This document shows positions 33,001 through 39,000 of a stretch of 64,000 nucleotides of DNA, one piece after another. This DNA is from Escherichia coli (GTDB lineage: Bacteria; Pseudomonadota; Gammaproteobacteria; Enterobacterales; Enterobacteriaceae). The stretch lies in NCBI RefSeq assembly GCF_003334385.1, contig NZ_QOWN01000007.1. One strand, 5' to 3'. Position numbers: made by a program. How positions within the stretch are numbered: the first letter of the stretch is position 1; each line of letters begins with the position of its first letter.

Positions 33001-36000
33001 ACAAGCGCGATCCGAACCAGGGTACCTGCACCAACGCCTGCCGCTGGGAGTACAACGTCCAGGAAGGGAAAGAAGATGACGTTGGCAACATCGTACACAA
33101 GTACGAGCCGATTCCGGTGCAAAATGTTGAGCCGACGCTGGGTATCGGCGCGCCAACCGACAAAGTGTTTATGATCGAAGAAGCCCAGCGTCCGGGCGAG
33201 TATATGACCGCGTTTGAAGATGAGCACGGCACTTACATCATGAACTCGAAAGATCTGCGCGCCATCGCCCATGTAGAACGCCTGACCAAAATGGGCGTGC
33301 ATTCGCTGAAAATCGAAGGCCGTACTAAATCTTTCTACTATTGCGCACGCACCGCACAGGTTTACCGTAAAGCTATCGATGACGCCGCTGCGGGCAAACC
33401 GTTCGATACCAGCCTGCTGGAAACTCTGGAAGGTCTGGCGCATCGTGGCTATACCGAAGGTTTCCTGCGTCGTCATACTCACGACGATTATCAGAACTAC
33501 GAATACGGTTATTCAGTTTCTGACCGCCAGCAGTTTGTTGGTGAGTTTACCGGTGAGCGCAAGGGGGACCTCGCGGCGGTAGCGGTGAAAAATAAATTCT
33601 CCGTTGGCGACAGCCTTGAGCTGATGACGCCGCAAGGCAACATTAACTTTACCCTTGAGCACATGGAAAACGCCAAAGGTGAAGCGATGCCGGTCGCACC
33701 AGGCGATGGTTATACTGTGTGGCTCCCGGTCCCGCAGGATCTTGAGCTCAATTACGCTCTGCTGATGCGTAATTTCTCCGGGGAAACCACGCGTAACCCA
33801 CACGGTAAGTGATTAATTTCGATTATTTTTCCCGGATGGAAAATTCTTAGAAACCGATCACATACAGCTGCATTTATTAAGGTTATCATCCGTTTCGCTG
33901 AAAAACATAACCCATAAAATGCTAGCTGTACCAGGAACCACCTCCTTAGCCTGTGTAATCTCCCTTACACGGGCTTATTTTTTATGCATAAGCCCTATCC
34001 CTGGTCACCGTCTTCCATTGACCACATCGATAGAATCTCCCTTCATAGCACGATGCCTTTCACGTAACGGCATCGTGCTCGCACAGGTTCCGGCTAAGCA
34101 CAACCAGAACGCACATATTTGACGCTTACCAAAAAATATTCTCACTCTCCACATTTGAATGTCAGACGAGCGACACCATGTAATCCTACACCTTCTGTCT
34201 TCAGCTCAACTATTTGCATTTTTTTGCCCTGAGTAACACAGAAATGGGCTGCATCATTTTTTACTATATTTTCTGCACCAGATATTCTACCCCTGGCTAA
34301 AGAAGCTTCGGCTTCGGTGTAGTATTGGTTATCGAGTTTACGCTGAATATTACTTTTATATGCAAGGCCAAATTTACCGATACTTGTCTCATCATTATGC
34401 ACAGCACAACCAGACATAAGAAAAACACTAATTAATGATATAGCAGCTATTTTATTCACCTCACCTTCCCCCATTAAATACCAACGACACTCTCTAGTGT
34501 TTAAGTATAATAATGGCCGATCATTATAATTGAATAGGATTATAATAAATGTTTTGTACAACATTTCCTACATAAGTAGGAATTACAGACTCAGAGGCCC
34601 TTCCGGGTAACCCTATGGGAGCTTTAATATATTTGGAATAGTATATTGAAGATGCCACTGTTTAGTTGAATATTAGATATTTGCTCTTTTTTCAAATTTA
34701 CCGGTGGCTACCGTTAACATTCACTGCCCCCATTGCAAGCTCCTGGTGGTAACAACTGAATTACCCATGCTTGAACTGACTTTTTATCCTCCGACTTTCA
34801 TCCTGTTCTGACTCCACCTTTTGTTTTCTGCTCTACACTATCTACAGACCAATCATAAAGGCACATACGATCATGGCAGAATTTCCCGCCAGCTTACTGA
34901 TTCTTAATGGCAAAAGTACTGACAATCTACCCTTGCGCGAAGCAATTATGCTGTTGCGTGAGGAAGGAATGACGATCCATGTGCGGGTCACCTGGGAGAA
35001 AGGTGATGCCGCACGATTTGTAGAGGAGGCCCGGAAGTTGGGCGTCGCAACGGTGATTGCTGGAGGTGGCGATGGCACCATTAATGAAGTTTCTACGGCG
35101 TTGATTCAGTGTGAGGGGGATGACATACCCGCGCTGGGAATTTTACCATTAGGAACCGCCAATGATTTTGCCACCAGCGTAGGGATTCCTGAGGCACTGG
35201 ATAAGGCGCTGAAACTGGCAATTGCCGGTGACGCCATTGCGATAGATATGGCGCAGGTCAACAAACAAACCTGTTTTATTAATATGGCGACAGGCGGATT
35301 TGGGACGCGTATTACCACAGAAACGCCGGAAAAATTAAAAGCCGCGCTGGGTAGCGTCTCTTACATCATTCATGGCTTAATGCGTATGGATACTCTGCAA
35401 CCGGACCGTTGTGAAATCCGCGGTGAAAACTTTCACTGGCAAGGTGACGCCCTGGTCATTGGTATTGGTAACGGGCGTCAGGCCGGTGGCGGTCAGCAAT
35501 TGTGTCCGAACGCGTTAATTAACGATGGCTTGCTGCAACTGCGCATTTTTACCGGCGATGAAATACTTCCGGCTCTCGTATCAACCTTAAAATCTGACGA
35601 AGATAACCCGAATATTATCGAAGGCGCTTCGTCGTGGTTTGATATTCAGGCACCACACGACATCACCTTTAATCTTGATGGCGAACCGTTGAGTGGGCAA
35701 AATTTTCATATTGAAATACTTCCGGCAGCGTTGCGTTGCCGTCTGCCACCAGATTGCCCGCTTTTACGTTAAATAAAAGCAAGCGCAGAAGCAGGATTAG
35801 CAGACCGGCATCATCCCTGGGATCTTCTGCGCTCACCCTTTTTTGTTACGCAGCTACGGCTAACGCTGCCAGTAATTCATTCATCGATAAATATCTTGCA
35901 CTCGCCGCATTAAAGCAGGTTTGTTGGGCATCTTCTGATACCACAATGGTGTTTATTCCTGCCGCCTGTGCTGCCTGAAAACCACTCACGCTGTCCTCTA

Positions 36001-39000
36001 TAACCAAACAATCTGCAGCAGACAGTTGCAATTCTCGCAGTGCAGAAAGATAAACTGCCGGATGGGGTTTCCCATGCTTTTCGTCATCAGCACTACAAAT
36101 CACCGAAAAATAATGCTGAATATTGAGTTTTGTCAGTACAGCATCGATCACCTGGTAAGATGAAGAGGTTGCCAGCGCCAGTTGATAGCCACTCCGGCGC
36201 AAAAAAAATAACACGTCCTGAACGCCTGGCATCGCTTCGCCCGTCCCGGCAATCAACGTAGTGATCAGGCGGCGAATCTCACTTTCCAACAGTGCGGGTT
36301 CAATGTGTAAATGACAATATTCACACCAGGTTTGGGCAATCTCATCCAGCCTTTTACCTTTAGTCAGTCTTATACACTCTTCGTCACTGACACATGCGCC
36401 CCACCTTGCCAGTGCTCCCTTTTGTGCCTCACGCCATAACCCTTCCGAATCAATGATGACGCCGTCCATATCAAAAATGACTGCTTTACAATTAAACATT
36501 GTTCCTCGCAATAAAGCCTGGCACCACACCAGGCTTGTCGTCATCAGGAAATGGTGGCGGTCTTCCCTTCACACACTTGCTGATTTGAGAATCCCGGTTG
36601 TTCGACGCGAATAAACGGGCAAATAATAAACGCTATCACATACAGGGTGGTGTAAGCGATAACCACACCAATAGTACTGAAATAAGGCAGAAGTACCACG
36701 GCGATTGCCGGAGCAAGGAAGTTGGACAACCCGGCTGAAAGGTTATAAACCGAAATAGCTGCTCCTTTATGTTTCGGTTCCAGTGCCGGGAAAACGGCTG
36801 CCATCGGTACGAATGCAGCAACAAAGATCCCCAGTGCCACCGCAGGTATCAGCGCCATAGCAAAGTTATGACCGAAATGTTGCGGCATGTAGTAGAACGC
36901 CAGGCTTGAAAGCGCCATTCCCACGCAACCAAACCAGCGAACAACTTTCATCCAGCCCATTTTCTCTGCCAGCACGCCCCAGAATACGTTAGAGAAGATG
37001 GTGGTAAAGAAGAAGACTGCCCAGACCTGCAACCACTCAGAGGTGGTAAAGCCCAGCTCATCAACAAACATCATCGGCATAATTACGGCGAATCCGAATA
37101 AAGATAAGGTGTTGATAATGCGAACAATACTGGAAAGCAAAATATTGCGGTTGGTATAAAGCAAAGTCACCGCACGGCCCAGTTCGCTAAACTTCTCTTT
37201 TGTGGTTAGGTTTTGCATATGGCGTGGTGTTTCTACTTTGCGCATAGAAATTAACGCAACAGCGCCACCAACCCCACAGAAGGCCAGCGCCAGCCATAAT
37301 GTTCCCATTTCGCCAATAAGCGGAATGGTAAAACTGGGGATGTAGCTGCCGAATACGCCGATACCAATAGAGTAAACTGCCCAGAACCAGCCCAGAGCAG
37401 CACTGGTGCTGTCACTGCGTACGTTATGGACAATCGCCACAATAAAGGCGTAGAGGAACAGCGGATAGGCTAGGCCACGAATACCATAAAACAGCAGGAT
37501 TAACCCATAGTTCGCCTGCCCCAGACCAAAGACCAGAAACAGCACGTGAAATACGCACCACAGCACAAAGCCGATAAACATGGTTTTTTGTGGCGTAATA
37601 ATTTCGGCAACTACGCCGGAAACCCAGGCGGAAAGCGCTGCCGCCAGGCCATAGAGCGTAAAGGCAAAGGAGGCTTCTGCAGGCGTGAAACCCAGTGCTT
37701 TAATGTAATGCGACAGGAATGCCAGTTCAAAACCGTCTCCGGTCATAAAGATGGCAATGGCAATATATCCCCACACCAGATTTAAGGGTAATCCCAGCCA
37801 TTGTTTATTTGTTAACGACATAGTGACCTCGTTTGTAGGATACAAAACGCCGCTCCGGTGCAAACACCGGAGGGCATTTGTGACAGATGTTATTGATTGC
37901 GATAGTTCAGGTCGTTGTGATACAGCGCAGTAAACTGCTGATATCGTTGCATCAGCGCATTATGACGTTCAGGATCGCTGCGCCAGGTTTTGAAGATTTC
38001 AGGTTTTTCACACACTGCCGCCAGTGGTTTTCCCGCAGCAAGACAGGCCAGACGCGCGGCTCCCAGCGCCCCACCCGTTTCACCGCCTTTATGCGTCACC
38101 ACTGGCATATCGAGAATATCGGCCAGTAACTGCGCCCAGAATGGACTTCTCGCCCCCCCACCTACCAGCGAGCATTGCTCAATTGCCGTACCGCTTTCTT
38201 GCAGGACTCGCAGCCCATCGGCAATACCAAAGCTGACGCCTTCCAGCACTGCATATCCCATTAGCGCACGCTGACTGGAGTGTGTCAGCGCCCAGAACAA
38301 TCCCCGGGCATGAGGATCGTTATGTGGCGTACGTTCACCAGAAAGATACGGGAGGAACATCGGTGCACTGGCTTTGTCTGCATCAGAAAGTTGGGCAATC
38401 TCTTCCAGTAACTCTGTTTCCGTTACCCCCACCAGACGGCAGAACCATTGCAGACAACTGGCGGCACTGAGCATTACACTCATCTGGTGCCATAAATTCG
38501 GTAGTACGTGACAGAAAGCATGGACTGCTGATTGCGGCGCAGGACGATAGGCATCTGTCACTACAAACAACACCCCGGAAGTTCCCAAAGAAATAAACGC
38601 ATCTCCGGGAGAAACGGCCCCCACACCAATTGCGCTCACGGCGTTATCGCCACCGCCACCAGCAACTACAACCGAAGATGTCAGCCCCCAACGGCTGGCA
38701 ACTTCAGGGGAAAGAGTGGCAGAAACGTCACAACCTTCCACCAGTTCCGGCATATTCGCCCGTGTCAGGCCACATTTTTCCAGCAACGAATCTGACCAGT
38801 CGCGTTTTTCCACGTCGAGCCACAACGTGCCAGCAGAATCCGACATATCGGAAATCTTTTGGCCGGTCATTTTGAAACGCAAATAGTCTTTCGGCAGTAA
38901 AACGGTGGAAATGCGCGCAAAGTGCTGCGGCTCATGGCGCCGTACCCATAGCAATTTGGGGGCGGTAAATCCAGGCATCGCCAGGTTTCCCGCTACCTGA

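What the first reader, a model, noticed from the sequence alone, without database searches (positions are those of the whole stretch)
35846..36546. HAD phosphatase appended to the dalDKT operon, with overlapping stop/start and an internal hairpin
The dalT stop and an ATG of the downstream HAD ORF overlap in the sequence TGATGA, implying translational coupling. However, a GC-rich hairpin (AGCCTGG...CCAGGCT, about 36514-36535) followed by TTTATT, and then a strong GAGGAA Shine-Dalgarno before a second ATG (M16), lie inside the first 15 codons. Either the hairpin is a partial terminator or attenuator and the protein starts at M16, or it is structured coding sequence. A phosphatase in a pentitol operon could dephosphorylate a pentulose phosphate, but that role is speculative.
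Basis: partly seen in the sequence, partly recalled or inferred. Interest (0 to 1): 0.35.

Follow-up and report, generated by a model that had tools for sequence, protein, structure and literature searches.

The report
Arabitol-operon phosphatase gene behind a conserved hairpin
The sugar-phosphatase gene at the end of the E. coli D-arabitol operon starts at the second ATG, and the hairpin in front of it is a conserved non-coding RNA stem-loop between two genes; this is an ordinary operon feature, and the stop/start overlap is a coincidence.

Summary
The dalT stop (36546-36544) shares its A with an ATG (36544-36542). A 7-9 bp GC stem-loop lies at 36536-36514, followed by TTTATT, GAGGAA (36507-36502) and a second ATG (36499).

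The protein starts at the second ATG (M16), as RefSeq annotates it (217 aa), and the hairpin is intergenic. All homologues are 215-221 aa and align from M16. The 15-codon extension carries in-frame stops in a second E. coli allele (EPEC E2348/69) and in an Escherichia sp. MR-type contig. M16 has a Shine-Dalgarno (-5.9 kcal/mol); the overlapping ATG has none (-0.6).

The order dalD-dalK-dalT-HAD recurs in more than 30 loci from Enterobacterales, Vibrio and Aeromonas. In 28 of 29 dalT-HAD spacers a stem-loop sits at the same place, with compensatory base changes (98.6% paired, 5 of 10 pairs doubly changed). The T-tract after it varies from none to canonical.

The hairpin most likely acts as a leaky terminator and/or 3'-end-protecting hairpin that sets phosphatase expression below dalDKT. 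The enzyme is an HxpB-like HAD-IA paralogue whose substrate is untested.

This is an ordinary feature of low novelty.

The parts
36544..37821 (-). dalT, the D-arabitol transporter (RbtT/DalT/CsbX MFS family, 425 aa). Its stop codon TGA is at 36546-36544.
   Evidence: RefSeq CDS WP_000060034.1. TIGR00897 scores 514 bits, above its cut-off of 375.
36542..36544 (-). ATG that overlaps the dalT stop (TGATG). It is the first codon of the mechanical 232-aa ORF and is judged not to be the functional start.
   Evidence: Sequence. There is no Shine-Dalgarno, -0.6 kcal/mol. The extension is closed by stops in EPEC and in the Escherichia sp. MR-type allele. Homologues lack it.
36514..36536 (-). Intercistronic RNA stem-loop AAGCCUGGU-GUGGU-GCCAGGCUU. 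It starts 7 nt after the dalT stop and ends 14 nt before the HAD start.
   Evidence: dG -13.8 kcal/mol. It is conserved in 28 of 29 orthologous spacers with compensatory changes. It is single-copy in the window and in each genome. No Rfam family matches.
36510..36515 (-). Short U-rich tail (TTTATT) after the stem; a weak terminator-like tract.
   Evidence: Sequence. It is nearly conserved in the four Escherichia-type alleles: TTTATT in three, TTTAAT in EPEC. It is absent or different in other genera. It does not meet the scan's criterion of 5 T in 8 once the stem is maximised.
36502..36507 (-). Shine-Dalgarno GAGGAA for the HAD gene.
   Evidence: Duplex with the anti-SD is -5.9 kcal/mol, in the top ~12% of ATGs in the region. 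An SD-like motif lies at the same place in most orthologues.
35846..36499 (-). HAD-IA phosphatase gene (217 aa), an HxpB/YniC-like paralogue. It is the fourth and last cistron of the dal operon.
   Evidence: RefSeq WP_000481293.1. Pfam HAD_2 1.9e-34. The catalytic motifs are conserved. dN/dS is about 0.08. Synteny.
35771..35844 (.). Large inverted repeat with T/A runs on both sides, between the convergent HAD and yegS genes. It is the likely bidirectional terminator that ends the dal-HAD transcript.
   Evidence: Inverted repeat I9. The fold is -39.8 kcal/mol, z = -3.0, matched by 0 of 200 shuffles.
37853..37872 (-). Second conserved intercistronic stem-loop (CUCCGGUG-UUUG-CACCGGAG), in the dalK-dalT spacer.
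   Evidence: z = -3.53. The same stem, about 15-19 nt after the dalK stop, is found in about two-thirds of the orthologous loci that were checked.

Best explanation
The HAD gene is an accessory fourth and last cistron of the D-arabitol catabolic operon (dalD-dalK-dalT-HAD). Translation starts at the ATG at 36499 (M16 of the long ORF), from its own GAGG Shine-Dalgarno.

The 44-nt dalT-HAD spacer is non-coding. It carries a conserved RNA stem-loop placed 7-10 nt after the dalT stop and just upstream of the Shine-Dalgarno. The TGATGA overlap and the open 15-codon extension are accidents of this allele.

Inferred mechanism: the stem-loop is the 3' hairpin of the dalDKT segment. It acts as a leaky intrinsic terminator and/or as a barrier to 3'-exonucleases, so the phosphatase is made from read-through transcripts at a lower level than the catabolic genes. 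Because the stem begins only about 7 nt after the stop codon, a ribosome terminating on dalT would mask its 5' arm, which favours read-through. The true operon terminator is the large hairpin between HAD and yegS.

The enzyme is an active HxpB-like polyol/sugar-phosphate phosphatase. Its likely role is to relieve phosphate-ester stress during pentitol catabolism, acting on pentitol phosphates or xylulose-5-P. That role is inferred only.
For: Shown, start site:
- RefSeq starts the CDS at M16.
- About 120 homologues are 215-221 aa and cover only residues from about 16 onwards of the long form. In an 18-sequence alignment all of them begin at M16/F17.
- Pfam HAD_2 begins at residue 22 of the long form.
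- The Shine-Dalgarno duplex is -5.9 kcal/mol for M16 and -0.6 for the overlapping ATG.
- The extension is interrupted by two in-frame stops in the second E. coli allele (EPEC E2348/69, 82% aa identity) and in the Escherichia sp. MR-type locus, which also has a 1-nt indel. Where the extension is open (L087), the codons in the loop differ radically (VWC versus ANR) while the stem is identical.

Shown, hairpin:
- It is present in 28 of 29 dalT-HAD spacers, and 27 of those beat at least 96% of shuffles.
- Its geometry is conserved.
- On a MAFFT alignment that was not fitted to the structure, 98.6% of cells are paired, 5 of 10 pairs have changes on both sides and the covariation score is 0.262 against 0.103 in shuffles (0 of 500 reach it); slid registers pair at 21-50%. 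RNAalifold finds the same core.
- The stem is conserved between Escherichia alleles although dS is above 1.

Shown, operon membership:
- Synteny holds across Klebsiella, Raoultella, Enterobacter, Citrobacter, Cedecea, Mangrovibacter, Pectobacterium, Aeromonas and Vibrio.
- No promoter-like site lies in the dalT 3' end.
- A strong terminator follows HAD.

Support for leakiness:
- The T-tract ranges from none to canonical while the stem is kept.
- A similar conserved hairpin precedes dalT, which must be expressed.
- dalDKT operons without HAD end in a hairpin at the same place.
- Terminators a few nucleotides after a stop codon are masked by coupled ribosomes (review PMC7858274).

Enzyme:
- The catalytic motifs are invariant or nearly so.
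- dN/dS is about 0.08.
- The best matching family is HxpB. The best solved structure is YniC, 1te2, at 34% identity.
Against: - There are no transcript, protein or enzymatic data for this locus.
- In E. coli alone the hairpin is not statistically unusual, and the terminator scan does not report it.
- Vibrio albus has only a 17-nt spacer with no hairpin, so the hairpin is dispensable.
- Sequence cannot separate partial termination from RNA stabilisation or processing.
- In this allele the sequence does not exclude low-level reinitiation at the overlapping ATG.
- The HAD gene is absent from the dalDKT operons of Serratia, Erwinia and a Neisseriaceae contig, so it is not needed for growth on D-arabitol. 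Its substrate is a guess.
Confidence: 0.72

Rival explanations
1. The hairpin is structured coding sequence. Ribosomes that terminate on dalT reinitiate at the overlapping ATG (TGATG) and make a functional 232-aa protein with a 15-residue N-terminal extension.
For: The overlap and an open in-frame extension exist in this allele and in the metagenomic relative L087. One ENA gene call lists the 232-aa form (P0001).
Against: The extension has in-frame stops in EPEC E2348/69 and in the Escherichia sp. MR-type allele, and the latter also has a frame-breaking indel. No homologue carries it. There is no Shine-Dalgarno. The substitution pattern is stem conserved and loop free, not codon-like. The HAD fold begins right after M16.
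Confidence: 0.04
2. The hairpin is an efficient terminator that ends the dalDKT operon. The HAD gene is then a separate unit, with its own promoter or essentially silent, and lies next to dalT for no functional reason.
For: dalDKT operons that lack HAD end in a hairpin at the same position. The Vibrio and C. koseri versions have good T-tracts. HAD evolves 2-3 times faster than DalD, DalK and DalT.
Against: The spacer is only 44 nt, and no promoter-like site lies in it or in the dalT 3' end. Most enterobacterial versions lack a T-tract. The adjacency and orientation are conserved across families, even in Aeromonas where dalT has decayed. HAD is under purifying selection. The stem starts about 7 nt from the stop codon, which favours masking by the ribosome.
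Confidence: 0.1
3. The palindrome works at the DNA level, as a binding site for a dimeric regulator such as DalR, and not as RNA structure.
For: It is a perfect inverted repeat, and the half-sites of palindromic operators also co-vary.
Against: The stem sequence, stem length (8-13 bp) and loop length (3-9 nt) all vary between genera, and only the pairing is kept. It lies at the 3' end of the operon, far from the dalR-dalD control region. G-U pairs occur in the stem; they pair in RNA but not in DNA.
Confidence: 0.03

Closest known systems
HxpB (YniC), hexitol/2-deoxyglucose-6-phosphate phosphatase of E. coli (HAD-IA; PDB 1te2)
   Same: It has the same fold family and the same catalytic motifs: DxD, the S/T motif, K, and ED. 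HxpB is the best NCBIfam hit (171.5 bits) and YniC the best PDB hit. Prokka named the E. coli C copy yniC_1 (PMC6805351).
   Different: Identity is only 34%, and the score is below the HxpB equivalog cut-off of 191 bits. It is a separate paralogue that sits in the D-arabitol operon, not at the yniC locus. Its substrate is untested.
Intercistronic stem-loops and leaky terminators that set differential expression within polycistronic operons (for example the malE-malF REP hairpins and the Rhodobacter puf intercistronic hairpin; named from general knowledge, not checked here)
   Same: It is a GC-rich stem-loop directly after an upstream cistron and before the Shine-Dalgarno of a distal cistron. 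The structure is conserved and the sequence is not.
   Different: It is not a REP/BIME repeat: it is single-copy. No Rfam family matches. Its effect on mRNA level or stability has not been measured.
Canonical intrinsic (Rho-independent) terminator
   Same: It has a GC stem of 7-9 bp and a loop of 5-7 nt followed by UUUAUU. The Vibrio orthologues carry a full U-tract.
   Different: The E. coli version fails the consensus scan. Most enterobacterial versions have no more than 2-3 U after the stem. A co-oriented cistron with its own Shine-Dalgarno follows 14 nt later.
Translationally coupled overlapping cistrons (ATGA/TGATG junctions)
   Same: The TGATG stop/start overlap is present.
   Different: The overlapping ATG is not the conserved start, it has no Shine-Dalgarno, and its frame is closed in sister alleles.

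Membership tests
HAD superfamily phosphatase, subfamily IA | Motif I DxDG(T/V), containing the nucleophile Asp and the Asp+2 general acid/base | tested here: met
   The sequence FDMDGV is at residues 9-14 of the 217-aa form. D25 is invariant and D27 at least 90% conserved (long-form numbering) across 18 orthologues.
HAD superfamily phosphatase, subfamily IA | Motif II (S/T), motif III (Lys) and motif IV (acidic ED/DD), plus a significant match to a HAD profile | tested here: met
   T126/S127, K159 and E183-D184 are invariant. Pfam HAD_2 scores 1.9e-34 and Hydrolase 7.2e-30. TIGR01509 (HAD-SF-IA-v3) scores 64.3 bits, above its cut-off of 29.4.
HAD superfamily phosphatase, subfamily IA | Mg-dependent phosphomonoesterase activity | not testable with these tools
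   This needs an enzyme assay.
HxpB (NF008087) equivalog | Whole-protein score at or above the curated cut-off of 191 bits | tested here: not met
   The score is 171.5 bits. Identity to YniC (1te2) is 34%. It works like an HxpB-type phosphatase but is not filed as HxpB.
dal (D-arabitol) operon member | Co-oriented with dalT, directly downstream of it, and conserved in that position across genera | tested here: met
   The order dalD-dalK-dalT-HAD was found in more than 30 loci. The gene is optional: it is absent in Serratia, Erwinia and a Neisseriaceae contig.
dal (D-arabitol) operon member | Co-transcribed with dalDKT and induced by D-arabitol | not testable with these tools
   Only indirect evidence is available: there is no promoter-like site and the terminator lies after HAD.
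Intrinsic terminator | GC-rich stem-loop | tested here: met
   The stem has 7-9 bp and dG -13.8 kcal/mol.
Intrinsic terminator | U-tract (at least 5 T in 8) immediately after the stem | tested here: inconclusive
   The scan did not report it. After a 6-bp GC core the tail is TTTATT, but after the maximal stem it is TATTGCG. Across orthologues the tract ranges from none to canonical.
Translationally coupled overlapping gene pair | The overlapping start codon is the conserved, functional start of the downstream protein | tested here: not met
REP/BIME repeated extragenic palindromes | Multi-copy element in the genome | tested here: not met
   There is one copy in the window, allowing up to 3 mismatches, and one place per genome in 332 E. 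coli genomes.

The most novel reading that the evidence does not exclude
The dal-linked HAD is a dedicated damage-control phosphatase. It would hydrolyse dead-end pentitol phosphates made by the promiscuous xylulokinase DalK (D-arabitol, xylitol or ribitol phosphates), or bleed off excess xylulose-5-P. On this reading the conserved hairpin close to the dalT stop is a translation-sensitive leaky terminator that keeps this potentially wasteful enzyme at a fixed low ratio to the kinase. This would give a molecular answer to the classical 'toxic synthesis' phenomena in pentitol catabolism, which I recall from the Scangos and Reiner papers of 1978-79 and did not verify here.
Probability: 0.3. Interest if true: 0.4.

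Novelty: new member of a known kind. Interest (0 to 1): 0.2.

Why it matters
Mainly this is housekeeping. It confirms the RefSeq start at M16 against longer automatic gene calls; a 232-aa version exists in ENA-derived data (P0001).

It also shows that an HxpB-like phosphatase is a recurrent but optional fourth gene of the classical dalDKT operon. The papers I could retrieve do not discuss that gene (the Heuel dal-operon papers were not available).

The two conserved intercistronic hairpins make this operon a tidy natural example of expression tuning inside an operon by RNA structure. The phosphatase is a reasonable candidate for a metabolite-repair enzyme in pentitol catabolism. None of this would surprise a specialist.

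Tried and rejected
- **Consensus promoter/terminator scan.** It reported neither the hairpin nor a promoter for HAD.
- **Rfam at a permissive E-value over 35600-41000.** Nothing matched.
- **Terminator d-score.** I computed a d'Aubenton-Carafa-type score with coefficients recalled from memory and modern energy parameters. Most values were negative. I do not rely on it, because the formula is unverified and A-U pairs at the base of the stem absorb part of the T-tract.
- **Literature.** Searches for dalD/dalK/dalT, pentitol phosphatases, pentitol-phosphate toxicity and HxpB gave nothing on this gene beyond an automatic 'yniC_1' label in the E. coli C genome paper (the label is). Heuel et al. 1997 (PMC179502) is not held.
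- **Within-allele E. coli variation.** 308 genomes carry the gene at 99% identity or more, so this was uninformative. A more sensitive search then found a second allele.
- **REP element.** Rejected because the hairpin is single-copy.
- **DNA operator.** Rejected because the sequence and geometry vary and the stem contains G-U pairs.
- **rbtT comparison.** rbtT does not carry the same 3' hairpin. It has a different, stronger one shared with the convergent fbaB.
- **Structure prediction.** Not run; the sequence evidence was sufficient.

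
Full report
**Where this is.** The window is Escherichia coli, 100% identical to strain 4/2-1 over the region tested. The finding lies in the ribitol/D-arabitol island, which sits between yegS and fbaB in place of the galactitol (gat) genes of K-12. The gene order is yegS(+) | HAD(-) dalT(-) dalK/xylB(-) dalD(-) | dalR(+) | rbtR(-) | rbtD rbtK rbtT(+) | fbaB(-). The island's HAD gene is found in 308 of 5,426 complete E. coli genomes at 99% identity or more. A second, divergent allele is present in 27 further genomes.

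**Observation.**
- The dalT stop TGA is at 36546-36544 and shares its A with an ATG at 36544-36542.
- That ATG opens a 232-codon ORF that runs to 35846.
- The stem-loop AAGCCUGGU/GUGGU/GCCAGGCUU is at 36536-36514.
- TTTATT, GAGGAA (36507-36502) and a second ATG (36499) follow.

On its own the E. coli hairpin is not exceptional. A 91-nt context folds with z = -1.21, 3.7% of spacer shuffles fold as well, and the consensus terminator scan does not list it.

**Start codon.**
- RefSeq/PGAP annotates the protein (WP_000481293.1, 217 aa) from the second ATG.
- Among about 120 listed homologues, all except an identical ENA gene call and a few truncated entries are 215-221 aa. They cover only 88-94% of the long form.
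- In an 18-sequence alignment every orthologue begins at the column of M16/F17.
- The Pfam HAD_2 domain begins at residue 22 of the long form. M16 therefore leaves the short N-terminus typical of these enzymes before the DxDG motif.
- The anti-Shine-Dalgarno duplex is -5.9 kcal/mol upstream of M16 and -0.6 kcal/mol upstream of the overlapping ATG.
- In the second E. coli allele (EPEC E2348/69; HAD 82% identical) the spacer has the same length, but the extension reads MEASLV*CQALM*GTMFNCK, with two in-frame stops.
- The Escherichia sp. MR-type locus has a 1-nt deletion and the same stops.
- Only one metagenomic relative keeps the extension open. There the three codons in the loop differ radically (VWC versus ANR) while the stem is unchanged.
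- Other genera mostly have closed or out-of-frame extensions.

The 15-codon extension is therefore not a conserved coding sequence, and the TGATGA overlap is incidental.

**The hairpin is a conserved RNA structure.** I collected orthologous loci by a genome-collection scan seeded with the HAD protein and by exact-protein look-ups.
- Of 29 dalT-HAD spacers (17-62 nt), 28 contain a strong GC stem-loop, and 27 of these beat at least 96% of shuffles. The exception is Vibrio albus, which has a 17-nt spacer.
- The geometry is conserved. The stem starts 5-16 nt after the dalT stop, mostly 7-10 nt. It ends 10-23 nt before the start codon, just upstream of the Shine-Dalgarno.
- I counted pairs on a plain MAFFT alignment of 17 sequences that was not fitted to any structure. 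For the 10-pair helix, 98.6% of cells are paired and 5 pairs have changes on both sides (for example G-C to C-G, and U-A to C-G or A-U). The covariation score is 0.262 against 0.103 in shuffles (0 of 500 reach it). Registers slid by 1-3 columns pair at only 21-50%.
- RNAalifold independently predicts the 6-bp core.
- Between the Escherichia alleles synonymous sites are saturated (dS above 1). Even so, the stem, the U-rich tail (one change, in EPEC) and the GAGGAAC motif are kept, while the loop and the bases before the stem vary.
- The element is single-copy, so it is not a REP repeat. It matches no Rfam family.

**What the hairpin does (inferred).**
- The T-tract after the stem varies widely: canonical in Vibrio (TTTTTCTATTTTTT), TTTTT in Citrobacter koseri, TTTATT in Escherichia, TTAA in Klebsiella, and none in Mangrovibacter, Rouxiella or Enterobacter hormaechei. 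The conserved part is the stem, not efficient intrinsic termination.
- A second conserved hairpin (CUCCGGUG-N4-CACCGGAG) lies in the dalK-dalT spacer, upstream of a gene that must be expressed. Such hairpins in this operon are therefore compatible with read-through.
- dalDKT operons that lack the HAD gene (Serratia rubidaea, Erwinia sp., a Neisseriaceae contig) end in a hairpin at the same position after dalT. The stem-loop therefore looks like the dalDKT 3' hairpin, with the HAD gene lying beyond it.
- No promoter-like site lies in the spacer or in the dalT 3' end.
- A large hairpin with T-runs on both sides lies between HAD and the convergent yegS (-39.8 kcal/mol, z = -3.0). This is the likely true end of the transcript.
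- Terminators placed a few nucleotides after a stop codon are masked by a coupled ribosome (review PMC7858274). This fits the conserved 7-10 nt distance between stop and stem.

My best reading is a leaky terminator and/or 3'-end-protecting stem-loop that sets HAD expression below that of dalDKT. Sequence alone cannot separate partial termination from RNA stabilisation.

**The protein.**
- It is a HAD-IA hydrolase with all catalytic motifs conserved.
- It is under purifying selection. dN/dS is about 0.08, against 0.03-0.04 for DalD, DalK and DalT; because dS is saturated the ratios are rough.
- Its nearest curated family is hexitol phosphatase HxpB, but the score of 171.5 bits is below the cut-off of 191.
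- The nearest solved structure is E. coli YniC (1te2) at 34% identity.

It is thus a dal-operon-specific paralogue and not HxpB itself. The E. coli C genome paper lists it only as the automatic label 'yniC_1' among strain-specific genes (PMC6805351).

- Gene context ties it to the DalD/DalK reactions and not to transport. In Aeromonas caviae dalT has decayed but dalD-dalK-HAD remains. In Pectobacterium and Aeromonas the HAD gene is followed by transaldolase and transketolase genes.
- It is optional, being absent from 3 of 4 DalD-seeded loci. It is therefore not needed for the core pathway D-arabitol -> D-xylulose -> xylulose-5-P.

A role in hydrolysing pentitol phosphates or excess pentulose phosphate is plausible but untested. 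The link to the classical pentitol 'toxic synthesis' observations rests on my memory of the older literature, which I could not retrieve.

**Verdict.** Translational coupling and structured coding sequence are not. The feature is an ordinary, already correctly annotated gene start plus a conserved intercistronic hairpin. It rates as a new member of known kinds and is of low interest.

Noticed in passing
window 37853-37872 (- strand), in the dalK-dalT spacer: A second intercistronic stem-loop, CUCCGGUG-UUUG-CACCGGAG, lies about 17 nt after the dalK stop (z = -3.5). The same stem with free loops recurs in about two-thirds of the orthologous loci checked.
   Followed up: partly
window 35714-35846, with comparison to K-12 locus L096: Identity to K-12 is about 100% through yegS until roughly 35713. 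It drops to 86% in the last ~55 nt of yegS and to noise after the stop. The left boundary of the rtl-atl/gat alternative cassette therefore lies inside the 3' end of yegS, and HAD is its outermost gene.
   Followed up: partly
L097 (E. coli O127:H6 EPEC E2348/69 derivative), 5362-12050: This is a second, divergent dal-HAD allele at the same yegS site. HAD is 82% identical in amino acids and the spacer 84% in nucleotides, and the allele occurs in 27 complete E. coli genomes. Here rbtR and rbtD are annotated as pseudogenes, so the ribitol half of the island has decayed.
   Followed up: partly
protein P0003 (Escherichia sp. MR; locus L083 6001-6648): The closest non-identical orthologue has FDMNG in place of FDMDG. 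The Asp+2 general acid/base of HAD motif I is Asn, which would be expected to impair phosphatase chemistry.
   Followed up: no
window 36589-37844 and 45527-46782: dalT and rbtT form a 1,256-nt inverted repeat at 78% identity that flanks the two operons. This is probably the 'inverted repeats' reported around the E. coli C ribitol-arabitol genes in the 1980s; that attribution is from memory and was not verified.
   Followed up: no
L090 (Pectobacterium odoriferum) and L091 (Aeromonas caviae): In these loci the HAD gene is followed by co-oriented transaldolase and transketolase genes. In Aeromonas dalT is reduced to fragments (43-56% identity over about 70 aa) while dalD, dalK and HAD stay intact.
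   Followed up: partly
window 35771-35844: A 21-nt inverted repeat with a 32-nt structured loop and T/A runs on both sides lies between the convergent yegS and HAD genes. It is a likely bidirectional terminator (-39.8 kcal/mol, z = -3.0). The consensus scan missed it because of the long loop.
   Followed up: partly
window 46846-46873 (+ strand): A strong 12-bp hairpin, CAUCCUCUCCC-UCAU-GGGAGAGGAUG, lies between rbtT and the convergent fbaB (z = -5.3). It is unrelated in sequence to the dalT 3' hairpin.
   Followed up: no
L034 (MAG labelled Lacinutrix): A contig binned as a Flavobacteriia MAG carries a complete dalR|dalDKT-HAD cluster whose proteins are 49-79% identical to the E. coli proteins (63-79% for DalR/D/K/T, 49% for HAD) and which is organised as in Vibrio. 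This suggests a misbinned contig or a recent transfer.
   Followed up: no
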